Source: Tricharina praecox (Eukaryota). Taken from it: a DNA stretch of 64,000 nucleotides. Of the stretch, positions 7,871 through 61,540 are shown in pieces. Position 1 is the first letter of the stretch; every line of letters starts with the position of its first letter. Where the stretch lies: assembly GCF_024521635.1 (NCBI RefSeq), contig NW_026250423.1:186001-250000 (forward strand). The letters run 5' to 3'. Position numbers and translations under genes: made by a program. Below the pieces are notes generated by a model that was not told where the DNA came from, did not search any database, and saw only the letters and a program-made list of their open reading frames with translations.

Positions 7871-9167
7871 GGCGTTTGGCGTATTTGTACTTGGGAATGG
7901 ATAAATGCTTTTTGCGCTTGAAGTGTGATATTCAGTGTTTACAGTGTTTTCAACCTACGGTATCCCACTCCTCCCAGTACGGCTTCTTTCGGGGGTTAGA
8001 GTACTTCCGCGTTGGCCCGTTTCTCTCGATACGTCTCGGCCGATGCCTCGCTGAGCGGATTCCCCATCGGCGGTGGTAGACTTGTGGAATTGAACCCAAG
8101 ACGACAATACCTAGGTAGGCAGTGGTGGTCCCGGACTCCTGGGCACGAGTTACTGGATGCTCAACTGCATGGGTAAGTAATCTGACCTTGACGTTATGTA
8201 TGTGGAATCATTAACTAAGGGTGAGTGTAGGTACTCGGCGGTGAACGATTGATGATGACTGACATGATTTTCCTGGTTAGGATGATGACGACGGATCGGA
8301 TATGTAGGTAGGTACGAGGGTTGTGTGGAAAGGACGGACCGGCACAGGGCTTGCAGTGACCAGCCAGCTACAGCATGCCGCTACGAGAGCCGTGAGAAGC
8401 CATCCAACCGTGTCGGTCCCGGTCTCGGGAACGCCGGGGCGATAGTTATCACCGCGGGCCAAGATTGGGGCTGGATACTCTACACCTCTCTCAGGAGTTA
8501 GGACATAGTTACACTGTGGCATACCTACCTGTGAGGTTGCGGCACTCACCGCTCCCGAACCGCCCAATTCTTGCCGCCAGAAGGAGAAGGGAACCGGCAA
8601 TACACACCTTGTATGTGCCTACTCCGATCAGGCCTTGTGGCTAGTTATGTATCATAAATCCCATGGTCCACGGTCCATTCCCTGCGGAAGTCCATCGTGG
8701 AAGCCAGAGCAATCCATGGAATTATTCCACTTGTCCGTCACTGGCTCTGGCATCTCGAGGGTATAACGGGTACCGGTACTACCGTTATACCACCGCTCCG
8801 CTCCTAGTCCAGTCTGGAAAGGAAAGGAAACTTGGGAAAGGCGTTCGGTCGGATTCCGGATTCCTTTGCCTTGTTCAAGATTCAAGACGCTCTGGTAGGT
8901 TCGGCGGCGGTGGATCATGGATGGGAGCGTTGGTAAGCCGTAGGTATTTCTTTGTCTTGATTCTTGCTGCTTTGGCTTCGGTCTGCTGGTAGATTTGCTG
9001 ATTGATGGACGATGGGACGATGAGATCATGGGATCATGGGATCATGGGCCGATGAGATCATGGGCCGATGGGCAAGGATAATGACTGATCACTGGCGAGT
9101 ATGATTGCCAGGTTTGACTCTTGAGTGGCTTGATCCGAACTAAACTGAACGAATATCTACCCGAACT

Positions 9168-47300: not shown

Positions 47301-48046
47301 TACTCGAACAGGCCGAAATGGAGTTATGGAGGTCACTCGGGCTCTGGATCTGGCTTGCGGGGGAGGGGGAGGAGTTGTCTGAGGCACAGCACTGAGGAAA
47401 GGATAGATAATTGTGGGCTTGGGCTGTGGGTATTTACTCTAATGAAGCCCGAGCTTTACTACTATATACAGAAGCGTGTTCTTGAATCCACTGGAAGTCT
47501 GAAAGGTCTTTCTTTCACTTGGTGATTGATCATTCATTCATTCTCACGGCCGCTGGTGCTGCCAGCCGGTTCCTACTCCCCTTCCACCGCTTCCGCTTCT
47601 TCCTCTTGTTGCTTCTCCTGCTGATGTTGCTGCTTCTTCTCGTAGGGCCTGTTCGGTTGCCAGCAGGATTTTCAAAATTCGCGGTTTTGAGGAGTTGAAC
47701 ATTACCAAAGCTGCAGCTACAAACCATCAACTTCCCTGATGACCTGTTCGACAACCCAGATATTCAACAGCATGCCACACTCTTTATATATGTATTGTGG
47801 CTCAGTTGACATCACGCAGTTTCTCAAATTATTAACTTGGGGTGGTCACTGGTGTGCCGAACGGTCACCTAGCGCCCGGGAACTGAGGGTTTCAAAATGT
47901 ATCTCAATTTTGTGTGGTATCTATTTTCAAAAAGCAGCTAATAACCGAGAAGGCCCTTATTCTTCCTCCTCCTTCTGCATCTCCTCCTCGTCTTCTTCTT
48001 CCATCTCATTCTGATCTTGATCCTCGTTTTCTTCCTCCGTCTCATT

Positions 48047-48649
48047 CTAGTTTTGATCCTGACCCTCGTCTTCTTCTTTCATCTCATTCTGGTCTTGACC
48101 CTCGTCTTCTTCTTCCATCTCATTCTGGTCGTGATCCTGGCCCTCGTCTTCGTCTTCCATCTCATTCTGGTCGTGATCCTGATCCTCGTCTTCCATTTCC
48201 TCGTCGTCTTCTTCCATCTCGAATTCCTGCTGCTGCGCCTCCCCCCTGACCGCCTCCCAGTCCATCTCCTCGAAGTCCAGCTCCACCGGCCACTGGGCGT
48301 CGACCCCAGCGGGCGTGGTGATGACCATGGACACCACGCCGCTTGGGATGCGCTTCCTACCTCCAGGCTGGAGGTAGAAACGCGCACCCTCCACGAGCGT
48401 GGTGTGCACGTCGAACTCCATGTCCGCGAGCCGCGCCATGGTGCTGGCCTTGAGGGCATAGATGTACTTCTTGGCGCGCCCGGACTTGGAGATGCCGCTG
48501 GCGGCCTTGGTGATCTGTGAGAGCCGTGTCAGATGCAGTGCGATAGAAGTGCGGGTCGTGCTTACCTTGGGGGCGTTGCGGGCAGGCTTCACGGCGGCAG
48601 CAGCGGGCCTCGGAGCCCGCTTGCGGATGTCGTATCTTTTCGGAGACAT
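48047..48649 (-). CDS. Hypothetical protein with basic N-terminus and acidic tandem repeats (EEDEGQDQNEM-type)
   Basis: ORF with a likely intron (GTAAGC..CTGAC..CACAG) and 33-39 bp coding repeats. The repeats continue in frame past the TAG to 47957. Confidence 0.5.
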   Translation of the reverse strand: MSPKRYDIRKRAPRPAAAAVKPARNAPKVSTTRTSIALHLTRLSQITKAASGISKSGRAKKYIYALKASTMARLADMEFDVHTTLVEGARFYLQPGGRKRIPSGVVSMVITTPAGVDAQWPVELDFEEMDWEAVRGEAQQQEFEMEEDDEEMEDEDQDHDQNEMEDEDEGQDHDQNEMEEEDEGQDQNEMKEEDEGQDQN

Positions 48650-49362
48650 CTCTGGTAGATATCGTGTTAGCATTCATTGTTGCGAGTGAGTTTGTGTGAT
48701 AAGACGGATTCACTTACTGAAAGTTTGGTTTTCGAATGGCGTTGGGGTTGGCTCAGAGAGTTGTGTCAACTTGCGATGTGTGTGGTGAAGAGAAGAAGAG
48801 AAGAAGAAGAGAAGTCGGTAGGCGTGGGGTTTTGTAGGTGTGGTGGTGAAGCTTCAACATCTGAGGCTGACGAGACACAATCGCAGATGGTGAGGGGAGG
48901 TCTAGTAGTAGCCTCGCGGGGCTATTGAACCTCACCGAGCGGCGATACCGCTTGCGCCGTCTGGACCTCTGATCAGATCTCGCGCTTTGCCCGGTTGCCC
49001 GCTTGCTTGCTTCGCCGCCCATCATCCGTGTTCACTGCACTGGCATGTTGGTTCCCTTGGTTCTGAAGTACTCTTGATTATAACCCTTTCCCTCAGTATG
49101 GATAGCAATGCCGGAAAGATACGTGTACAATCTACTTGAAGTACAATCAAAACGATAAAAAAAAACATACAAAACACTTGACCGAGGTAGTCACTAGCTT
49201 CACCCAGAAGAAGCCACAGTCGTCTACCACAGAAGCGTCCGGCCCCGTGTCCTACCACGATACACTGCTGAGGAAACCGCCTATAAAAGCCGACATTCAT
49301 CAGTCTCTGCCTTTCTACAGCTTCAGAAGGATGGGTAGGTAAGCTGAAAACTAACCGCTCTT

Positions 49363-49908
49363 TCACTGCATATACCGCTTTGACTCCGCCGCACGGAGCA
49401 GGAGGTGAAAACGATCCACCTGCTCTGCGCTCGCATGCGGGCCCGATTCGGAATCGATTCTCTGCTGCTTGGAGCTCGAAGCCGAGGTCGAGAATGAGGC
49501 TTCCGAGCGTGACCTCTTGGCCTTTCCGCTCGGCGGCCTATTGTCGTCTTCGTCACCCCCGAGATACCCCTCGTCCTCTTCTTCCTCTTTTTCCTCCTCT
49601 TCCTTTGTCTCCTCACCATCCTCCTCTTTCTCCTCTTCCGTCTCCTCGCCATCCTCCTCTTTCTTCTCTTCCTCTTTCTCTTCTTCCTCCGTCTCCTCGC
49701 CATTCTCGCCATCCTTCTTATCAACCATCTCCGCCGCCAGCAGCAGTAGCTGCACCATCTTCAACATCCCCATGTCCAACTTATCTTCACTCGAACGTTC
49801 GAGGCCACATGCAAAGTGGTTCCACCCCAACCCCGGGTTCTTGGGAGGACTATCAATTTCACTCTCACTCGTGAACCCCGAGCTGTAGTAGTATCCATGG
49901 GACGACAT
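49363..49908 (-). CDS. Hypothetical Glu-rich low-complexity protein
   Basis: 181-aa ORF with ACAATGT start context and an upstream pyrimidine-rich leader. No family recognised. Confidence 0.4.
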   Translation of the reverse strand: MSSHGYYYSSGFTSESEIDSPPKNPGLGWNHFACGLERSSEDKLDMGMLKMVQLLLLAAEMVDKKDGENGEETEEEEKEEEKKEEDGEETEEEKEEDGEETKEEEEKEEEEDEGYLGGDEDDNRPPSGKAKRSRSEASFSTSASSSKQQRIDSESGPHASAEQVDRFHLLLRAAESKRYMQ

Positions 49909-50820
49909 TGTGGTTGCTACTTATTGAATTAGTACATGATCACTGTGACTGTGACTGTGAGACTTGGGTTGAACGGCTTACCTGCTTGGGTTAATATTGG
50001 AAGTTGAGAGAAGGGTAGTGTATAGGTGGTATCGGGAAGGGCTGGAGGAGATGGTGAGCCTTGGTGTGCTGAAGATGGAGATGGGATAGGGTAGCATACC
50101 TGCGTATATAGAGCTTGAGTTGGTAGGTGGGGTTGCTGTTCCGAGTTGCTGTATGTTTCGATGGGAAATTTGGGGGAGACGGGAGAGGCGGCTGGTATTT
50201 GTATGGGAGGGAGATGTCTGATGTCCGATGCAGAGCAGGATACCCTTGGGACATTGACTTTAGAATTGTCATATGTACATGTGTAAATAAGCATTGGAAG
50301 AGATCGTGGCCTCCTTGATTGAAGTTTCTTAGTGCATGTTCTTCTAGATCGTGTATATACGACTTTTTACTTTTTCGTCTACAAGGCTGTACCCCGAAAC
50401 TCACGATGCAGCTTTACCTAGGTACTGTATAGTGAAGGGGGGGTAAAAAAAATACGATATTTGACCGTACTGGTACAGGGAAAAAAAGTGTATTTTTTAC
50501 CCCCCCCCCCTTCACTATACAGTATGTACATACTTGCTCGTGCTCAGTGAAGAGTGAGTTTGCCAGCCGTATCGTTGAATGCTTGTGCGCGGCTGTGGGG
50601 AGTTTCGTCTCGTGGCGGTTCACTCGGCTCACTCTCTCTCCACCCGCTTGTTGCCAGCAAGGCTGTATTCCGGGTAAGCAACCAGGCACCACACGATGGA
50701 CGACTCCCTTCGCCGTCCGAGTACCACTTACTTCTTACTCCTGACCATTTTCCGCTAGATATCTAAGTTCTCAAGTGTCATGCCCTGATCCGGGAAATAC
50801 GTGCTCAAATACACAGATGG

Positions 50821-51190
50821 AAACTATCGCCGTTGTCAGATGACCCTCTTCCAGTGTTCCAGCCCTCTGTGGCTCGTAGCTTGAATACTTACGACTTTTT
50901 ATACTTTGCAGAGGCATAACTGTGGCTCGAGCTTAACTATCAGGAGCTGTGCACCGTACGGCTTAAGCCTTACTATCAGGAGCTGCGCACCATACGGCTT
51001 GATCTTAACTACCGGCGTTGTCCGATGACCCACTTCCAGTGTTCCAGCCCTCCGTGGCTCGCAGCTTGAATACTTCGGTCGTTTTATCCTTTGGGGAGGT
51101 GTAACTGTGGCTTGAGCTTAACTATCAGGAGCTGCGCACCGTACGGCTTGATCTTAACTATCGGGAGCTGCGCACCGTACGGCTTTCGCC
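50821..51190. repeat. 185-bp tandem duplication, each copy containing two ~33-bp sub-repeats
   Basis: GTTGTC(A/C)GATGACCC..TTCCAGTGTTCCAGCCCTC at 50832 and 51017. The sub-repeat TTAACTATCAGGAGCTGCGCACCGTACGGCTT occurs four times with variants. Confidence 0.9.
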
Positions 51191-53774
51191 CCGATTCCAT
51201 GGTTCTGCCTTACTTTGTGTAGAAACTGTCGATGAAGGAAGGTAGGCCCAGCCCATCAGGTCTCGCGAGTGACAGATAATGAGGGGCTGTGTATTAACCT
51301 AGATTAGGGAAGTGGGGCTATCCCCTGCACAGGGCTGTGATTGGCATGGTCGTTCTTCGCGATCATAGCCCATCACTCACAGATAATTCTGTGTGGAAAA
51401 CCCACGATGGGAATCCATTGGGCACAAGTCTTGCATAGCAGAGCTTCCTTCGCCACAACTGAAGCAGTGCCGATAAGCCCCACAGGACAACCAGAAAAAG
51501 AAAGAAACTCTCCATGCGTGAGAAGAGTCCTGGAAAGAAGAAGAAGACTGCCATAGAGTTCATTGCCGACAGAAGCCGCTCTCCACCCACTCGAAGCTCT
51601 CGTGGAGTCATAGACGTCGTCTCTGGTGAGCATCTCATTGCAGTGGACGCACAGAGCACCGGGTTTTCGAGGTAGCTCCGCAATTTCCGCTCCTATCAGA
51701 ATACACGGACCAAACACGGCTTGCGGTCAAGTGCGGTATTTGCGTTAGTGAGCCGAGCTCCTCAGGTCGCGGTCATTCGTGCTCAACAAGTCGCTTCCTG
51801 TGTTGACACGAACGGAAGGTCGGCTACGGACCGGTAATTGGGAGATACCAGCAGCTTTTCTACCGGTATCCTACACTACCGGCCCGCGGATATCACTTTA
51901 TACGTGCGGTCTGGAGGAGGAGGGAAAGGATTTGCTGTCGACCAACCGCAACAAGGCTGGAACTGCACTTCCCTTTGGGCGCTACGTAGCCTAGAACGCC
52001 ATTCGGCCGCGGGCCCGTTTGTAGCTGTTGCTGGGTACGAAGTACATATCATGATTCACCGAGGGCTGAAGGAACGGAGTGGCCATCCGCCAGTCGGTGG
52101 TCCCGATACGGTCCGCGAGAGCTTTCGTCTCGATGACTGGACGGACCCAAGGGTTTTCCGGACAGCTGCAGTAACCTGCTGACTACTAGCATGCCCAGGT
52201 AAAAACCTAGAGTACGGTTCCGATCACTCGTCGCTTTTGGGAGGTCCATCCCTTTGCAGCCAATCCGGTGGGCTGTCATTGTTTGTGTCACGACTTCCCC
52301 CGTTACCACTGCTGAAGGAATTCGCGGCGACCACGTGTTCTCCATCTGGCCATTGATCTGGGCACGACCGCTGCGTGTATAAGGGAGCGGAAACATCCAA
52401 TGTGCGTCGCGTCTACTGGTATGTTACCCACATTGTACATTGCACCGTTAGCATGCGCTCACCGCGGGGAAGCTATCTGCCGGCCTGTCCCCAAAGCTTG
52501 CCGCAGCTGAGGGGCGATCGCAAATGCCGCGTCGTGTGCACTGAAGCGATCAGGTTACACCCCGTGCATCTCTGCAAGACATCAAGCACCATCTCGGCAT
52601 TCTTATGAGAGATGCGAATGTCGGCAGTTGTTGCTCGGTGATCATGCGGGGAATGCACGTCCCCGGTAGCGTTGGATCCGCAGTCCGCAGTCCGCAGGTC
52701 CACAATCCGCAGGTCCACAGTCCACAGTCCACAGTCCGCGATCCGCGGTCAGTAGTCCGGCTATCGTTCCCAATGCAGGCATAGAGACACCGATGCGAAT
52801 CGAACCTTACTGGTGACTCTTCTGAAGCGTGGCAACGTGGGCGAAGATGCTGCCCAATGGACGGCTAACGCATTGCATAAGTTGTTACTCGGATGAAGCC
52901 CATTTGATCGAGGCTTCCCTCTGTCGACCCCCTGTTGAGCGTCGGAAGGCTGCGCAGAGGATGCCAATATCGCCTCGTATCTGCCATTTCAACAGTCGGC
53001 TACTCGAATGTGCTGTGCAATTTGCGGTTTAGAAGCCCTCCTCACCGCCTTACAAAGTTCCGACGAATCTCGCATACGTGCGTCTTTACGTACGTATTTC
53101 TCTCGATCCCAACAATCTATCCGCATGGAAAGAAACTTCATGCCACGATCCGGTTGGCTTAGGTGCTTCTTAGAGTTCCGTCGGGCTGTCTCCTGGTCGG
53201 TGTTGACTTCTGGCTCACAACGCCCGGCTCCACTTAGAGCCCCTCGCTGCACCATGTTAGGTTTCAGCTGGTCAAGATCCAACAGCCCGCACTGTAGTCC
53301 CAAGGATAGTCCGACGGCTTCCTACCTACCTGTTGTCGGCTTCGGCGGCCGTCTGGACGTCCATGCAATCACCAGATGTGCGTGCTCCAGTCTCTCGAGG
53401 CTTTGGGGGGTTCCCATCATGTATTGGCCCTATTTTCGCTCAACAGGGCGAGCAGGATAGCTCTACGCAAGAAAGGCCGAAGTAATTGTGATCGATGGAC
53501 TCGCCGTACTGCTTGCTCACTGCTGCCCCGGGGAATATAAAGACCTTATGTTGATGGTTCTTTCGGACGGATCAGGGCATAACCATCGCCAGCTTCCTGT
53601 CTCCAGAACGGTCCGAACTTCTTAACCGTACTATACTTGATCGTTTTCGAGTGGCATATTTCAAGGTGTATAACGTCCGAGTTTACTGCGGTATGTCGTA
53701 CTGATATCTTGGGGGGCTGGGTCGTGGACGGACAAACTAACAGGACGCGGGTGAGAAGGCCGTCTTTATCACGG

Positions 53775-55373
53775 ATGGCTTTCGTTCATCATAGTGCAGC
53801 AAGTGTTGCACGGATCGAAGATATACCTATGTCCCGTGTACCCAGACACCAGGACAAGAGCAGCAGCTCGGAACAGCCCAACCTCCTCTTCCTCCTCACA
53901 CCACCGTCATCACCTCGCATCGGCTCGCCACCCTCACTCCCAGTCACTTCGCAGGCGGCAGGGGCAGTAGGACGACAGAGCGATCCGACACCTCCTCCTA
54001 TCAATGACAGCTGCGTTGCCGTTCTAAACACCGACAGAAATCTAGAGCTGTCTACGGTGCAGTATCACAGGCTCGACCTTAACCAGCCACCCCAGCCAAT
54101 CCGTAACGTTCGTGACTTCCACTTTCTGCCGGACTGTACGGCCAAGTTTCTGCAGAATGACTTCTATGCGCCGTGTGCGAAGGCCGCATTCAAGAATTAC
54201 AAGGCGTTGCATAGGATGTTTTCGTTTTTTTCCGGGGCTGATGCCGCGGCAGCGGTTGGCTGCTCTGCCTTTGTCGAGCGTACGGAAGTATTCTCGCGGG
54301 GTTCAAGCCAGCCAGCCGCTGAACATAATCAAGGTGAAGAAGGAGGGCAAGCCACTCTCAACATCAAGCCCTTCACCGAAGCCATCTTCGGCCCAGCCGG
54401 TCCTACCAGAAGCCACTTGTTCTTCTCAACCCGCGGCTGTTCCACGCTCAAGGCCAGCCACAAGCTCACAGACTTCACCTCGATCCACATCGTCAGTGGA
54501 ATCTGCCTCTTCTCACAGCGACATCTCGGCACTGAACATGGCGAGATCAGTGATCAGTGTCCACCGCTACCGTACGACACAAAACCCACAATGTACGAGC
54601 TGGAAACTCTTCTCCGCCTCAGCTCTGCCATAGCGGACACCGTCTCGCTCCTCCCCGCTTCGGTGCCACCTCCAACAGTCACGTTGGATGTACCGCGGAT
54701 TCAATACTACGCACCGATCCTGGCCGCTTTCTCGTCCGGCCACTGTACCCGCCGCGAGATGGAAGCCTGGCTGGCAGCAATCGATACCCGACACGACCAG
54801 CTGGCCACTATATTTCCGGCCGTAGTGCATGCTTTCCTTTCATCCCGCGGCATCCACAACATTCGTGTGGAAGTATCTTCAACCCTTGACGTGCTCCTCC
54901 CGTACATCCGCGACCACCTTTCCTCGTCCACGCCACTCCACATCACGGGCATCCTCAAAGAGCTCGTCCGCGTCGATCCACTATGGGCATCCTACCTCCC
55001 TAACCCGCCACCAGCAGACCTAACAGCCCTCAGCAAATCCTCGTACTCCTACACGCTCGTCCGACCTGCGCTCTCCAGCACCCCGAGCGACAAAGTCCTC
55101 CTGCTGCATATCGATAACCCGGCGGAATGGCGCATCTTCTTGGAGGCACAGAAGGCGCTTGGCGAACGGCCCGGGATGCTGCTGGGACTCTACCCGCTCG
55201 AACGAGTATTCACAGGGGAGAGCACCGGACGATCCAGTCTGTATCTGCAGGATCCCGGGCAGATGCTGTGGGATTGTGAGAGCGGGGAGGTGGGATTGAG
55301 AGACGTGCTGGAGACGATTTATGGAACGAAGACAGTGCTGGCTTACGGTGGAGCGAATGTATTATACGGGTGA
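53775..55373 (+). CDS. AnkA/AvaA-like arginine-containing cyclodipeptide synthase (RCDPS, tRNA-dependent), putative
   Basis: 532-aa uninterrupted ORF with blocks I associate with fungal RCDPSs: IVSGIC, KPTMYELETLLRLSSAIAD, TLDVPRIQYY, WLAAIDTRHDQL, LLHIDNPAEWRI (DDxxE-like) and RSSLYLQDPG. TATA-like ATATAAA at about 53535 and a probable 5' UTR intron at 53691-53742. Confidence 0.65.
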   Translation: MAFVHHSAASVARIEDIPMSRVPRHQDKSSSSEQPNLLFLLTPPSSPRIGSPPSLPVTSQAAGAVGRQSDPTPPPINDSCVAVLNTDRNLELSTVQYHRLDLNQPPQPIRNVRDFHFLPDCTAKFLQNDFYAPCAKAAFKNYKALHRMFSFFSGADAAAAVGCSAFVERTEVFSRGSSQPAAEHNQGEEGGQATLNIKPFTEAIFGPAGPTRSHLFFSTRGCSTLKASHKLTDFTSIHIVSGICLFSQRHLGTEHGEISDQCPPLPYDTKPTMYELETLLRLSSAIADTVSLLPASVPPPTVTLDVPRIQYYAPILAAFSSGHCTRREMEAWLAAIDTRHDQLATIFPAVVHAFLSSRGIHNIRVEVSSTLDVLLPYIRDHLSSSTPLHITGILKELVRVDPLWASYLPNPPPADLTALSKSSYSYTLVRPALSSTPSDKVLLLHIDNPAEWRIFLEAQKALGERPGMLLGLYPLERVFTGESTGRSSLYLQDPGQMLWDCESGEVGLRDVLETIYGTKTVLAYGGANVLYG

Positions 55374-55678
55374 TTATGCTGGAATTATGCCAGAATGTAT
55401 CTATCGAGCGGATCTCTTTGGCTGTTGCTTCAGAATGTTTCTTCACAGCACCAATCGTGACCTATCCTACGGCCTATTTATCTGCAACCTTCCCTGTTCC
55501 CTTCCCACTCAACTCACACTATGTGATCCTTGGTCCTCTTGGTGAAATGTAATCATCCGAGTGATAATGCCGCGAAACACCCCTGCAAGCTCCTTCGCGC
55601 GCTTAATTACCAATTCAACCCACCACGCGTCTTCCATCCGTCGCGTCTTACCCAACAACACTCCGCATTACAACCACA

Positions 55679-57010
55679 ATGAACAAATCACTCGAGCCCA
55701 ACCTGCACAACCTCCTACCGTCGCTGGCGGGGCCTATACCGTCGGAGCTCCTCGATCTCGCGACTTCACTCCTCGCGCAGTCGCACACGCGCATTAGCAA
55801 CCTCAAGGCGAACGAGGAGATCGCGCGATCGTACGTGTGTGCGCATCTTGCATGTGAACGGTATGTAGCTACCCCCCGTAAATGAAGGAAGGAACGTAGA
55901 GCTTGGCTGTGGTGGTAGCGGCACTGACAGACCCGGGTTACTTGCAGGCTGAAGAATAAAATCGATATCCCGAGCATCGAGCCGAATCCCCCCCTGCCGC
56001 CGAAGGAGTATAATAAGCTCCTGGCGTACTTCAAGACCTCGCTCGCGCCAGCTGCCCGGGCGTCGACTCGGACTCGGAATGCTCCCGTACCTGCACCCAC
56101 ACCCGCAGCTGCACCTCCGCCACCACCAGTAACCGCAACCGCACCCGCATCTACATCCGCCCCCGCACGAGCCTCGGACGCACTCGACCCCACCCTCGCC
56201 GCCAACCTCAAAGCACTATGCACACGGCTCAACGCGCCGAACGCGTACACATACGTGTACAACGGGGTGCACGCGGTGCTCACGGCGGCCGAGAACCGCA
56301 CTGTGCGCGGCAAGGCGATCGAAGCGATCTCTGTGGCGGTGGGAATACTCGTGATTGAGCGGCTGTCGGCGCACGACACGGAGATACCGATTGGCAATAT
56401 CAAGTGGAAGCGTGGAACGGGGTATAAGACCAAGCAGAGGGAGGTTATGGCCGTGCTGGCTGAGGTCGCCAGGACCAAGGCTCCCCTGAAACATGCTGTC
56501 GATGATTGGGTCCAGAAACTTAGTCAGCAGGGGTTTAGGAAGTGGCCTTGGATGCAGGCGGTGCCGGATGGCGTTGGTGCCGGGGGGAACGGCGTGCTGG
56601 GGAGGGTGGGCGAAGTAGGGGAGAGTGTGGAAGCTGTGGAGGTGAAGGGGACGAATATTAGGAAGCGCAAGGCGGAGGTGCAGCCGCCCCAGCCGGAAGC
56701 GAAGACTAGGAAGGTGAAGGCTGAGAGCAGTGCTACTGGTGCCAAAGTACCTGCCGCCCCTGCCGCGAAGAAGAAGGCAGCCACTAAAAAAGCCGCAGCT
56801 GTCCCAAAGACGATCAAGGCGGTCCCCAAGTCTAGGCCGAAGCCGAAACCCAAGACAAGTTCCACCAAGACTGCTTCCTCTGGCGATGCCGGTGGCGGAG
56901 GAACAATGTTGCAGGATCGAGTGGACTATTTGACCGAGAAGAAGAAGAACTCGTTTCAGATATGGAAGCTACAGATTTTGGAGAAGTGTGCTGAGGTTGA
57001 AGCTTTGTAA
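55679..57010 (+). CDS. ORC6: Origin recognition complex subunit 6
   Basis: LLAQS..LKANEEIARSYVCAHLACERLK..PPLPPKEYNKL (ORC6 N-terminus) and C-terminal GTMLQDRVDYLTEKK..FQIWK. Intron at about 55861-55947. Confidence 0.88.
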
Positions 57011-59198: not shown

Positions 59199-60015
59199 CT
59201 AAACGCTCAGGGCCATGATGGAGTTGACAATGTCGTTATCGTTCTCCTTAAGAGCTTTGACGGCCTTCTTTCGGGAGACACCCGCCTGTAGTAATGATTC
59301 ATGTCAGCTTCCTGCATGCGCCTAGGTGATTGACGTAAGTTAGGGAGATCCAACCTGTGCCATAACGAGCTCAATGTCCTTGCTCTCGAGACCAGAGTCG
59401 TCGACCTCCTCGCCGTCGTCCTCCTCCTCCTCCTCAACCTTCTTGGCCTCGATTCCCTTACCCTTCTCGGCAGCGGCAGCAGCAAGGTCATCCTCGATGC
59501 TGGACTTCTCGGCCTCACGGAGCTGGTGGGCGGCGTTCGCCTGAGCCTGAGAGTTGAGGTCCTCGATCTTGGCCTCACCAAAGATGCTGCACACACACTT
59601 GTCAGCAAACTGCTGCTACTGAAGCTCCGAGCACAATCGCGCCATGCTGCTTACATCCAAGTGTTGCTGGTAGGGGACTTGTAAACATCGGGCGAGTTGA
59701 TAACAAACAGGATCTAAGGCGAACCATCACACATCAACATCACAGTTCCCCTCCACATCCAATACGGTACGAACATACGTTCTTGGGTCGTCGGAGGGTG
59801 ACGCGAGTGATGCCAGGAACATGCTTCAAGCCCAACTTGGCAATCTGCTTGCGGGCCTTCTTCTCGTTTCTCGAGTGGACCGTGACAGCCGATCCGGCGG
59901 GGAGCTCATCACCCTCGACGTCACCGGCCTCGGACTCCTCGGAGGACACGTGGTCCTCGAGCTCGACCTTGCGGGCCTGCTCGTCGGTGAGTTCTTCGAT
60001 GCGGGAGTCGGACAT
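59199..60015 (-). CDS. EGD2: Nascent polypeptide-associated complex alpha subunit
   Basis: [42 protein letters not shown], and UBA domain [36 protein letters not shown]. Three introns. Confidence 0.95.
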
Positions 60016-60685
60016 GGTAGATGCCTATTCGGTTGTTGTTCTTGTTAGCTGGGAAAATAGCGGGCCGATCGAGTAGTGGTATTTGGAGCCGGGAGTCAGG
60101 GGAATTCTGGGGGAGGTGATTGCGTACGGAGTAGTGAATTATTTGGTTTACCGGACACGTAAATCGGGAGGTGAATTGTTCGGAGAGGTGTGGTAGTAGT
60201 GGAGGTTGAGAGGAATTGGAATTAGTGCCAAGACTTTCGCTGGAGTGGGGCACGTCGGTCTAACCTCGACCCCTCCCTCGTCCACGCCCCTCCCCTCGCC
60301 ATTTCTCACTGTGCGCAGTCACATTTTGCACCATTCCACAAAGCGGCGGTGAACCACCTAGCCAAACAGAGAAAGAATCGCGTGTGTGCTGCCACAATCA
60401 CTCGCCCTAACCCCGCCTCACCCCCCTCCATCGTTCTGCCCGATAATTAACAGAAATTGATTTTCCCCCGCGAAGAAAAAAAGGCGGCTGAAGTGAAGTG
60501 AGTTACCTCTGGTCCCTCCCGCCCGTCTTCTCCCACACCCAAACTACACCACTCAACCCACCCCCTCCACCCCAACCTCGAGTTCTCCTTGGTACCGCCC
60601 ACGATTCCCGCTCCCGCCGACACAGACAGAGAGATCTCTTGCTAACTCCCTATCCGACCGTTAAGCGAACCTTACATCATCAATC
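60016..60685. promoter_or_regulatory. Shared divergent promoter of NAC-alpha and NAC-beta with a Homol-D-like box
   Basis: The start codons are 670 bp apart. CAGTCACA at 60316-60323 matches the Homol-D ribosomal-protein promoter element. GCCCTAACCC at about 60404 is Homol-E-like. Confidence 0.55.
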
Positions 60686-61540
60686 ATGGATCACGCAAAG
60701 CTCGCGAAGATGCAGGCGTCCGTCCGTATCGGTACGTGTCAAATAAACCCTCGGACCACACCTACACTATAGCTTGACCGGAGAACCCTGGTGGTGCTGG
60801 GGATTATTCCTTCAGGGCGGCGGGGTTGGACATTCATTGGGGCGGGGCATGGTGGAAGGTTGCGATTGATGTTGGGATATGGTTTACTGACATTCTCCTG
60901 CTGCTTAGGGTAAATACTCCTCCTCCGTCCTCCTCCATCCAACCCCTCGAGCAATGCCTCCGACCGGGACCTTCCTCATTCCAGCAACGGCTGACCGTCG
61001 GACTGTGGCTGGAGAATGTAAGGCTAATGATGGAGGGTTGATACAGCGGAAAGGGAACCCCACGGAGAAAGGTCAAGAAGGTGCACAAGAGCGCCGGAAC
61101 CGATGACAAGAAGCTTCAGGCTGCTCTCAAGAAGTTGAACGTGCAGCCCATCCAGGCTATTGAGGAGGTCAACATGTTCAAGGAGGACGGAAACGTCATC
61201 CACTTCGCCGCTCCCAAGGGTTCGTTTGTGCGATCCAGGTGGGGGAGGAATAGTGATCGCTTGAGCTTCGTACTGATTGATCCGTGTGTGTGCAGTTCAC
61301 GCGTCGGTCCCTTCCAACACCTTCGCCATCTACGGAAACGGCGAGGACAAGGAGTTGACCGAGCTCGTCCCCGGTATCCTTAACCAGCTTGGCCCCGACT
61401 CGCTCGCGTCGCTGCGAAAGCTCGCAGAGAGCTACCAGAGCCTTCAGAAGAAGGAGGGCGATGACGACAAGAAGGACGACTCCGATGACGATGACATCCC
61501 CGACCTTGTCGAGGGCAAGGACTTCGAGAACAAGGAGTAA
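60686..61540 (+). CDS. EGD1: Nascent polypeptide-associated complex beta subunit (BTF3)
   Basis: [90 protein letters not shown]. The reading frame requires a 1-nt exon at 60909. Confidence 0.95.

What the first reader, a model, noticed from the sequence alone, without database searches (positions are those of the whole stretch)
53775..55373. Stand-alone RCDPS-like (AnkA/AvaA family) tRNA-dependent cyclodipeptide synthase with a DNxxE variant motif
Seen: a 532-aa ORF with SGIC (Cys codon 54504-54506), PTMYELE..LRLSSAIAD, LDVPRIQYY, IDNPAEWRI (55113-55127 encodes DNPAE) and SLYLQDPG. Established: fungal RCDPSs such as AnkA (cyclo-Arg-Tyr) and AvaA (cyclo-Arg-Trp) use aminoacyl-tRNAs, share a DDxxE motif and typically sit in clusters with tailoring enzymes. 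Here the second Asp is Asn, and no tailoring gene is visible (the neighbours are ORC6 and a gene-poor, repeat-containing stretch). Inference: a divergent enzyme making an unmodified or new cyclodipeptide. The family assignment is from motif recollection and needs confirming.
Basis: partly seen in the sequence, partly recalled or inferred. Interest (0 to 1): 0.78.

Follow-up and report, generated by a model that had tools for sequence, protein, structure and literature searches.

The report
Fungal RCDPS-family cyclodipeptide synthase gene
This intron-less fungal gene is a genuine but divergent relative of the recently discovered enzymes that make arginine-containing cyclic dipeptides from charged tRNAs, and its odd-looking motif is a common variant in that family.

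Summary
The 532-aa ORF at 53775-55373(+) and every quoted motif are real. Pfam, NCBIfam and PDB sequence searches give nothing. A profile search finds 460 relatives. One of them led to the UniRef entries 'Arginine-containing cyclodipeptide synthase avaA' and 'anoA'. Direct BLASTP to AvaA gives 31% identity, E 9e-34. C244, Y424, D447-N-P-A-E451 and Y516 align with AvaA's published key residues C193, Y392, DDIAE(428-432) and Y515. The family assignment is therefore confirmed.

The 'DNxxE variant' is not special. Asn sits there in 56 of 154 family representatives, including the whole query clade and an Orbilia clade. The position changed at least 11 times between D and N on the tree. No tailoring-enzyme domain was found between 28 and 64 kb. 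ORC6 is the downstream neighbour.

dN/dS is 0.27 over the folded part, and 34 of 36 family-conserved columns are kept, so the gene looks functional. The product cannot be predicted.

The AlphaFold model (pLDDT 84.6) has a TrpRS/TyrRS-like class-I synthetase fold (Z up to 13.2) and also matches bacterial CDPSs (Z 6-8).

In passing: actinomycetes carry homologues next to cyclodipeptide-oxidase genes, although the papers I could read describe RCDPSs as fungal only.

Verdict: a new member of a known kind.

The parts
53775..55373 (+). Intron-less ORF of 532 aa (P0001), an RCDPS-family protein. The end coordinate includes the stop codon.
   Evidence: Searches give the ORF. BLASTP to AvaA is 31% identical, E 9e-34, and to AnoA E 9e-36. 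It is the only copy in the window. dN/dS is 0.33.
53775..54008 (+). N-terminal residues 1-78, Pro/Ser-rich and predicted disordered. Shared with the two closest orthologues only.
   Evidence: pLDDT is below 50 for residues 1-75. In alignment A1 this region is present in P0002 and P0003 and absent from P0004-P0008. dN/dS is 0.76 for the first 78 codons.
54504..54506 (+). Codon of Cys244 in the G242-I-C244 loop, right after the strand at residues 236-242. Inferred acyl-enzyme nucleophile.
   Evidence: Aligns with AvaA C193. AvaA C193 is listed as a key catalytic residue in the review PMC11610942. Cys is present in 143 of 154 representatives. The strand position comes from DSSP on the model.
55044..55046 (+). 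Codon of Tyr424.
   Evidence: Aligns with AvaA Y392. Tyr is present in 142 of 154 representatives.
55113..55127 (+). D447-N448-P-A-E451, the counterpart of AvaA's DDIAE (428-432).
   Evidence: Searches give the alignment. Family counts: position 447 is D in 116, E in 30 and N in 4; position 448 is D in 83, N in 56 and S in 9; position 451 is E in 146, each of 154.
55320..55322 (+). Codon of Tyr516.
   Evidence: Aligns with AvaA Y515. Tyr is present in 126 of 154 representatives.

Best explanation
The ORF encodes a functional member of the RCDPS family (AnkA/AvaA type), from a separate, early-branching fungal clade. By homology it should take two aminoacyl-tRNAs, one probably Arg-tRNA, and release a cyclodipeptide (2,5-diketopiperazine).

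Inferred mechanism, by analogy with AvaA's key residues and with the ping-pong mechanism of bacterial CDPSs: Cys244, in a G-x-C loop just after the first strand of a class-I-synthetase-like Rossmann core, takes the first aminoacyl group as a thioester. Tyr424, Asp447/Glu451 and Tyr516 then position and activate the second aminoacyl-tRNA and the dipeptidyl intermediate for cyclisation.

The protein has no HIGH or KMSKS signature, so it should not activate amino acids with ATP itself. No tailoring gene is nearby, so the product is probably released unmodified or modified by unlinked genes.

Shown here: homology, residue conservation, fold class, purifying selection and gene context. Inferred: tRNA dependence, the role of each residue, and the product.
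For: - Named link: the family profile hits P0019 at E 1.2e-86. P0019 is 68% identical to UniRef 'Arginine-containing cyclodipeptide synthase avaA' (P0167) and 'anoA' (P0168).
- P0167 carries C193, Y392, Y515 and a single DDxxE at 428-432, exactly as the review gives for AvaA (whole text read).
- Direct BLASTP of P0001 against AvaA gives E 9e-34 and 31% identity over query residues 237-519, with C244, Y424, DNPAE and Y516 in register. Against AnoA it gives E 9e-36.
- P0001 keeps the consensus residue at 34 of 36 columns that are at least 70% conserved in the 140 sequences outside its clade. The two differences are I for V and L for P.
- dN/dS is 0.27 for the folded part.
- Model: pLDDT 84.6, pTM 0.83.
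- An all-against-48,161-chain VIA search puts only TrpRS and TyrRS at Z>=8 among the first 13 rows (best 3hzr: Z 11.6, 259 residues aligned, rmsd 5.0). Bacterial CDPSs follow: 2x9q Z 8.1 with 188 of 222 residues, 4q24 Z 7.8 with 176 of 224 at rmsd 3.3, and also 9j61, 6ztu, 6y4b, 5mlq, 5ocd and 9gun. The second look at Foldseek's own hits gives TrpRS 3tze at Z 13.2.
- Two runs whose ORC6 contigs are spliced, and so hold RNA, also hold colinear, 100% identical contigs over 53764-54200 and 54354-55420, with no joints. This is a weak hint of transcription.
Against: - The second Asp of AvaA's DDxxE is Asn here. I could not find out whether any Asn-type enzyme has been assayed, because the primary paper is not held.
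- Identity to characterised enzymes is only 31% and covers residues 237-519. The N-terminal 236 residues do not align to AvaA by BLASTP.
- The query clade is separate from the AvaA/AnoA clade (SH-like support 95-100 for the nested sets holding the query). Arg specificity therefore cannot be carried over safely.
- No profile-profile similarity to bacterial CDPSs was found (hhalign probability 0.15%). The CDPS-style mechanism rests on fold class and analogy only.
- The residue-level superposition (C244 on CDPS Ser37) could not be made, because no coordinates were available to me.
- The RNA evidence is from assembled contigs of runs whose RNA label is a guess.
Confidence: 0.75

Rival explanations
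1. A true homologue of RCDPSs whose substrates or chemistry have drifted. It might make a cyclodipeptide without arginine, or transfer an aminoacyl group from tRNA to another acceptor, instead of making cyclo-Arg-Xaa.
For: - It belongs to a clade distinct from the only named, characterised members I could retrieve.
- Identity to them is only 31%.
- There are no cluster partners that might hint at the product.
- The Glu that follows the conserved Tyr in AvaA and the bacterial homologues (Y-x-x-E) is Thr427 here. That column is E in only 76 of 154 representatives.
Against: All four published key sites and 34 of 36 family-conserved columns are kept. Nothing in the data points to another acceptor.
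Confidence: 0.18
2. A decaying or catalytically dead relic. It stands alone beside housekeeping genes, has lost its cluster, and carries a damaged DDxxE motif.
For: No tailoring genes lie nearby. D429 of AvaA is replaced by Asn. Only short contigs of the RNA-like runs lie on the ORF.
Against: - The frame is open for 532 codons, and dN/dS is 0.27 for the folded part.
- Asn at this site is the state of the whole clade and of 56 of 154 family representatives.
- Asn-type bacterial homologues sit next to intact cyclodipeptide-oxidase gene pairs.
Confidence: 0.05

Closest known systems
AvaA (Aspergillus versicolor) and AnoA (A. nomiae), arginine-containing cyclodipeptide synthases (RCDPS), retrieved as P0167 and P0168
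   Same: Homologous over the catalytic two-thirds (E 9e-34 and 9e-36, 31% identity). Cys, Tyr, the acidic motif and the C-terminal Tyr are in register. Length is similar (532 against 541 and 535 aa). None of them has a Pfam family (the Pfam column).
   Different: - The motif is DNPAE, not DDIAE.
- It lies in a different clade.
- Its N-terminal 236 residues do not align by BLASTP.
- It has an extra disordered Pro/Ser-rich head of 78 residues.
- It is not in a visible gene cluster, whereas the ank cluster holds several tailoring genes (review).
AnkA (Aspergillus thermomutatus), the founding RCDPS of the NK13650 pathway
   Same: Same family, according to the review.
   Different: AnkA sits in a cluster with NIS synthetase, PLP enzyme, FMO, methyltransferase, ATP-grasp and ABC transporter genes. 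None of these domains is found in 28-64 kb here.
Bacterial cyclodipeptide synthases (CDPS, Pfam PF16715; AlbC 4q24, Rv2275 2x9q)
   Same: Same fold class: Z 7.8 with 176 of 224 residues at rmsd 3.3, and Z 8.1 with 188 of 222 residues. Foldseek gives probabilities of 0.77-0.95 for YvmC, 5ocd and 6ez3. Both use aminoacyl-tRNAs (literature). A G-x-Ser nucleophile motif in CDPSs (alignment A5; S37) parallels G-x-Cys here.
   Different: No sequence similarity: no Pfam hit and hhalign probability 0.15%. The protein is about twice as long. The nucleophile is Cys rather than Ser. The Y178/E182/Y202 constellation could not be mapped.
Class Ic aminoacyl-tRNA synthetases (TrpRS, TyrRS)
   Same: They are the best structural matches, and they cover most of the catalytic domain: 3tze Z 13.2 with 252 residues aligned, 3hzr Z 11.6 with 259 residues aligned.
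   Different: No HIGH or KMSKS motif. No Pfam tRNA-synt_1b hit. Sequence identity in the structural alignments is 5-11%.

Membership tests
RCDPS (AnkA/AvaA family) | Significant sequence similarity to an experimentally characterised RCDPS | tested here: met
   BLASTP to AvaA (P0167) gives E 9e-34 and 31% identity over 335 columns. To AnoA (P0168) it gives E 9e-36. The identity of P0167 as AvaA rests on its UniRef name and on C193, Y392, Y515 and DDxxE matching the review.
RCDPS (AnkA/AvaA family) | Catalytic Cys (AvaA C193) | tested here: met
   C244 aligns with C193. Cys is present in 143 of 154 representatives.
RCDPS (AnkA/AvaA family) | DDxxE motif (AvaA 428-432) | tested here: inconclusive
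   - The aligned pentapeptide is D447-N448-P-A-E451. The first Asp and the Glu are kept, and the second Asp is Asn.
- Across 154 representatives this position is D in 83, N in 56 and S in 9, so a strict second Asp does not define the homologous family.
- Whether Asn supports catalysis is not known to me. The primary paper is not held.
RCDPS (AnkA/AvaA family) | Two conserved Tyr (AvaA Y392, Y515) | tested here: met
   Y424 and Y516 align with them. They are present in 142 and 126 of 154 representatives.
RCDPS (AnkA/AvaA family) | Aminoacyl-tRNA dependence and an Arg-containing cyclodipeptide product | not testable with these tools
   Needs expression or an in vitro assay. Only fold-level support is available: a class-I synthetase/CDPS-like core.
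RCDPS (AnkA/AvaA family) | Fungal gene, usually inside a cluster of tailoring genes. This is typical of the family, not strictly defining. | tested here: not met
   The context is eukaryotic: the neighbouring ORC6 has a spliced GT..AG intron. Pfam scans of 166 ORFs of 65 aa or more over 28-64 kb found only semialdehyde dehydrogenase, ERCC4, amino-acid permease and NAC domains. The window ends 8.6 kb downstream of the gene.
Bacterial CDPS (PF16715) | Match to the CDPS sequence profile | tested here: not met
   No Pfam family at E<=10. hhalign of the 120-sequence family alignment against 7 Streptomyces/Actinosynnema CDPSs gives probability 0.15%.
Bacterial CDPS (PF16715) | CDPS/class-Ic synthetase fold | tested here: met
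   2x9q Z 8.1 (188 aligned), 4q24 Z 7.8 (176 aligned, rmsd 3.3), 9j61 Z 7.5, 6ztu Z 7.3.
Class Ic aminoacyl-tRNA synthetase | HIGH and KMSKS signatures, and the tRNA-synt_1b profile | tested here: not met
   The regular expressions H[IVLM]GH and K[MIVLF]S[KR]S find nothing in P0001. No Pfam hit. Only the fold matches.

The most novel reading that the evidence does not exclude
This early-branching, Asn-type, unclustered enzyme makes a free cyclodipeptide, possibly without arginine, that acts as a signal and not as a precursor for a larger natural product.

More broadly, RCDPSs are not a fungus-only invention unrelated to CDPSs. They would be a second lineage of cyclodipeptide synthase built on the TyrRS/TrpRS-type fold. 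That lineage is also present in actinomycetes, where it pairs with cyclodipeptide oxidases, so the fungal genes may trace back to a bacterial donor, or the reverse.
Probability: 0.3. Interest if true: 0.65.

Novelty: new member of a known kind. Interest (0 to 1): 0.4.

Why it matters
For this locus the result is modest. It adds a divergent RCDPS, probably expressed and standing alone, from a poorly sampled fungal lineage. It also shows that the second Asp of the 'DDxxE' motif is not a family constant. That is useful when RCDPSs are mined by motif, and it gives an obvious site for mutagenesis.

Two by-products may matter more to the field.

- The family model has a class-Ic synthetase/CDPS-like fold. 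Papers I could read call RCDPSs evolutionarily unrelated or distinct from CDPSs.
- Homologues with all the motifs occur in Streptomyces, Saccharothrix and Actinosynnema, directly beside CDOA/CDOB cyclodipeptide-oxidase genes. The same papers describe RCDPSs as confined to fungi. One of them reports that 88% of CDO operons lack a CDPS.

Tried and rejected
- Sequence libraries gave nothing. Pfam at E<=10 on P0001 gave 0 families. NCBIfam on P0001, AvaA and P0051 gave nothing meaningful. PDB by phmmer gave 0 hits. PDB by the family profile gave only a de-novo design at E 0.57.
- The ESM Atlas gave no usable hit.
- The word-indexed searches with P0001 and with alignment A1 reached only 7-8 proteins and no named one.
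- The primary RCDPS paper (PMC10159913) is not held. I therefore could not check which RCDPSs were assayed, whether any carries Asn in the motif, or what its AlphaFold analysis says about the fold.
- No whole genome is held for the window, so paralogues and unlinked partner genes could not be sought.
- hhalign of the family against bacterial CDPSs found no similarity.
- The metagenome scan gave one orthologue contig, L001 (3.7 kb). It has no ORC6 downstream and no Pfam hit in 12 flanking ORFs. Synteny is therefore not informative. L002 is a weak 86-residue match and was not pursued.
- The look-up of sequencing runs listed no holder on record as RNA. X2 and X4 are RNA by guess only.
- Parts of the ORF have no contig cover in X2 or X4: about 53633-53763, 54201-54353 and others. 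Nothing is concluded from these gaps.
- Earlier findings of this scan hold nothing on this locus or family. The eight CDPS notes listed concern classical bacterial CDPSs and were not used.
A smaller alignment, A4, was used instead.
Full report
**Observation.** The window holds an ATG-to-stop ORF at 53775..55373 on the + strand, 532 aa. All five quoted motifs are in its translation. The quoted codon positions are right: C244 = 54504-54506 and D447-E451 = 55113-55127. The residue numbers were checked. The stretch codes for a real protein. Two unnamed proteins are 69% and 66% identical over 98% of its length. The orthologue on metagenome contig L001 is 74.6% identical in DNA over the gene only. 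dN/dS against it is 0.33 overall, 0.27 for codons 79 to the end and 0.76 for the first 78 codons.

**No library knows the protein.** Pfam gives no family at E<=10. NCBIfam gives none. The PDB gives nothing by phmmer and nothing useful with a family profile (one de-novo design at E 0.57). The ESM Atlas gives no usable hit.

**The family.**
- A profile of the first eight sequences (A1), run against 1.84 billion representatives, found 460 proteins at E<=1e-3, 357 at E<=1e-10 and 195 at E<=1e-30.
- Named members include Geopyxis carbonaria, Pochonia, Penicillium, Aspergillus, Arthroderma, Oculimacula, a lichen-fungus MAG, Orbilia oligospora, Dactylellina haptotyla and one Streptomyces. All are labelled hypothetical.
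- In a MAFFT alignment of 154 sequences (the 150 listed hits plus the earlier ones), the conserved positions are G242 (137), C244 (143), E275 (149), R281 (139), D305 (141), P307 (151), Y311 (152), W332 (147), R339 (151), W404 (147), Y424 (142), E451 (146) and Y516 (126).

**The named link.**
- The review PMC11610942, which I read in full, states that RCDPSs had been annotated as hypothetical proteins without a conserved domain. It gives the key residues of AvaA as C193, DDXXE, Y392 and Y515.
- Representative P0019 (Penicillium pancosmium, profile E 1.2e-86) had its conserved Cys and Tyr at 195 and 394, so I used it for my last word-indexed search.
- That search returned UniRef 'Arginine-containing cyclodipeptide synthase avaA' of Aspergillus versicolor (P0167, 541 aa) and 'anoA' of A. 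nomiae (P0168, 535 aa), each 68% identical to P0019.
- P0167 has C at 193, Y at 392, Y at 515 and one DDxxE at 428-432, which matches the review.
- BLASTP of the window protein against AvaA gives 31% identity and E 9e-34 over query residues 237-519. Against AnoA it gives E 9e-36.
- In these alignments C244, Y424, D447-N-P-A-E451 and Y516 lie opposite C193, Y392, D428-D-I-A-E432 and Y515.

**The 'variant' motif.**
- Across the 154 sequences, the first motif position is D in 116, E in 30 and N in 4. The second is D in 83, N in 56 and S in 9. The last is E in 146.
- I built a FastTree tree of 143 rows, using representatives of 340-660 aa plus AvaA, AnoA, P0175 and P0177; fragments and multi-domain proteins were left out.
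- In that tree the query sits in nested sets of 3, 7 and 11 rows with SH-like support 100, 99 and 95.
- Motifs in those sets: P0001/P0002/P0003 have DNPAE, P0005 (Geopyxis) DNQAE, P0004 and P0011 DNPAE, P0014 DNKNE, P0006 and P0013 ENPLE, and P0018 DSHYN.
- AvaA and AnoA lie in another clade with DDIAE. The Orbilia/Dactylellina clade has DNIVE.
- The second position needs at least 11 D<->N changes on this tree, and 22 changes counting all states.
- So Asn is the normal state of this lineage and a frequent state of the family. It is not a sign of a special enzyme.
- P0001 keeps the consensus at 34 of 36 columns that are at least 70% conserved outside its clade.

**Structure.**
- AlphaFold2 with the 120-sequence alignment A2 gives mean pLDDT 84.6 and pTM 0.83. 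Residues 1-75 are disordered.
- Foldseek against the PDB ranks TyrRS first (E 1.2e-4) and also lists the CDPSs YvmC, 5ocd and 6ez3 (E 4e-3 to 2e-2).
- VIA-align on Foldseek's list gives TrpRS 3tze at Z 13.2 (252 aligned, rmsd 4.5). All 50 rows shown are TrpRS or TyrRS at Z>=10.
- The independent search of 48,161 chains gives 13 chains at Z>=8, all TrpRS or TyrRS. Next come Rv2275 CDPS (Z 8.1, 188 of 222 residues) and AlbC (Z 7.8, 176 of 224 residues, rmsd 3.3), then further CDPSs and other class-I synthetases.
- The tool warns that Z of 7-8 is common background. The synthetase matches stand above that, while the CDPS matches are at its edge but cover about 80% of those small proteins.
- There is no HIGH or KMSKS motif, and there is no profile similarity to CDPSs (hhalign probability 0.15%). 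That agrees with the 'no sequence homology' statement in NAR 2026 (passage).
- C244 follows directly on the strand at residues 236-242, in a G-x-C loop. CDPSs have an invariant G-x-S at the corresponding early position of their sequences (A5), and Ser37 is their acyl-enzyme residue (passage). I could not make the residue-level superposition.

**Context.**
- Pfam scans of stop-to-stop ORFs over 28-64 kb (15 + 65 ORFs of 110 aa or more; 86 ORFs of 65-109 aa in 44.3-53.7 kb and 57-64 kb) found only the following: semialdehyde dehydrogenase (27.9 kb), ERCC4 (41.2 kb), an amino-acid permease (42.4-44.0 kb, minus strand) and two NAC-domain exons (59.7-60.0 kb minus, 61.0-61.4 kb plus).
- No P450, methyltransferase, prenyltransferase, oxidase, PLP enzyme, ATP-grasp or transporter lies next to the gene.
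- ORC6 lies 306 bp downstream, with exon 1 at 55679-55859, an intron at 55860-55946 and exon 2 running to 57010.
- Upstream there are tandem repeats at 50822-51185, 52677-52759 and elsewhere.
- 'Stand-alone' therefore holds within the window, which ends 8.6 kb downstream. No whole genome is held.

**Expression.** No holder run is on record as RNA. Contigs of runs X2 and X4 carry the ORC6 gene with its intron removed, whereas the DNA-type run X1 is colinear there. X2 and X4 also hold 100% identical, colinear contigs on 53764-54200 and 54354-55420 of the ORF, without joints. This is a weak hint that the ORF is transcribed and intron-less in those parts. Contig depth cannot rank expression.

**Mechanism.**
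- Shown: homology to tRNA-dependent RCDPSs, conservation of their four key sites with one D-to-N change, a class-I synthetase/CDPS-like core without ATP-binding signatures, and purifying selection.
- Inferred: the enzyme takes aminoacyl groups from two charged tRNAs, carries the first as a thioester on C244, and cyclises the dipeptidyl intermediate with the help of Y424, D447/E451 and Y516.
- The identity of the two amino acids is open. The review says that each subclade has its own second amino acid, and this clade has no characterised member that I could find.

**Comparison and novelty.** This is a new, divergent member of a known family, not a new kind of system. What differs from AvaA and AnkA is the clade, the Asn in the motif, the disordered 78-residue head and the lack of a visible cluster.

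**By-products outside the window.**
- A scan of one genome per prokaryote species with alignment A4 (one pattern, [ILV]D[VI]PRVQYY) gave 16 loci. Thirteen are from Streptomyces, and one each from Saccharothrix deserti, Actinosynnema sp. and a 'Candidatus Saccharibacteria' MAG.
- Their proteins are 342-375 aa. They carry G-x-C, YE, DxPRVQYY, SY and [DE]-[NSRTD]-x-x-E, and most carry the C-terminal Tyr.
- The Streptomyces protein P0051 matches the window ORF as well as AvaA does (32% identity, E 8.6e-38).
- In the three loci scanned fully (L003, L007, L009), a nitroreductase-family gene (PF00881) lies beside the homologue.
- By tblastn, 11 of 16 loci have such a gene within about 4 kb. There is none in L004, L006, L016, L017 or L018.
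- In 6 of 7 loci examined (L005 is the exception), a DUF6092/PF19585 ORF lies beside or close to it.
- PF00881 plus PF19585 are the CDOA and CDOB subunits of cyclodipeptide oxidase, according to bioRxiv 10.1101/2023.09.25.559410 (section 5 read). [quoted passage not shown] PMC11749224 says the same about fungi (passage).
- My two literature searches (24 papers hold 'RCDPS' or the full name) turned up no description of bacterial RCDPS homologues or of the synthetase-like fold. The primary paper and most subscription journals are not in the library, so this is not proof that either point is unpublished.

Noticed in passing
L003-L018 (prokaryote genome loci); the RCDPS-like ORF is at 8001 to about 9090 in most of them: Actinomycetes (13 Streptomyces, Saccharothrix deserti, Actinosynnema sp.) and one 'Ca. 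Saccharibacteria' MAG encode 342-375-aa homologues of fungal RCDPSs with all the family motifs. Papers I read describe RCDPSs as confined to fungi.
   Followed up: partly
L003:6178-7198, L007:6702-7623, L008:6869-7673, L010:6767-7562, L009:6113-7418, L013:9152-9953: A nitroreductase-family gene (PF00881, CDOA) and a DUF6092 ORF (PF19585, CDOB), together the two subunits of cyclodipeptide oxidase, lie next to the bacterial RCDPS-like gene. Counts: PF00881 homologue in 11 of 16 loci by tblastn, DUF6092 in 6 of 7 loci examined. This may explain some of the CDO operons reported to lack a CDPS.
   Followed up: partly
L009:13704-15392 (+): An additional class-I Trp/Tyr-type tRNA synthetase gene (PF00579, E 1.3e-58) lies about 4.6 kb downstream of the RCDPS-like gene of Streptomyces rimosus. 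It could be a resistance or supply copy, or a coincidence.
   Followed up: no
Model of P0001 (window 53775-55370): The family model has a TrpRS/TyrRS-like class-I synthetase fold and also matches bacterial CDPSs. Held papers call RCDPSs evolutionarily unrelated or distinct from CDPSs. There is no sequence-level signal.
   Followed up: partly
Proteins P0021 (2103 aa, Arthroderma sp.), P0117 (1328 aa), P0139 (1014 aa), P0150 (697 aa), P0174 (799 aa, Paecilomyces variotii): Some family members are much longer than the usual 500-580 aa, so the RCDPS domain may be fused to other domains. The extra parts were not analysed.
   Followed up: no
window 55679-57010 (+): ORC6 gene with one 87-nt GT..AG intron (55860-55946), confirmed by spliced contigs in two runs. 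One run also shows a second 52-nt GT..AG joint at 56747-56798, which would shift the frame.
   Followed up: partly
window 59743-60024 (-) and 61042-61380 (+): Two separate NAC-domain exons lie on opposite strands about 1 kb apart. They may be the alpha and beta subunits of the nascent-polypeptide-associated complex as divergent neighbours.
   Followed up: no
window 54591-55370 (protein P0009): The protein collection holds a 260-aa version of this gene that starts at Met273 (MYELE...), and a 256-aa version (P0010) for a relative. Automatic gene calls have cut off the N-terminal half, including the catalytic Cys.
   Followed up: yes
window 47945-49920: Tandem repeats of 36-78 bp and 9-51 bp (TCCTCTTCT-type) lie inside long ORFs on both strands. 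They probably encode an acidic low-complexity protein on the minus strand. No Pfam family matches.
   Followed up: no
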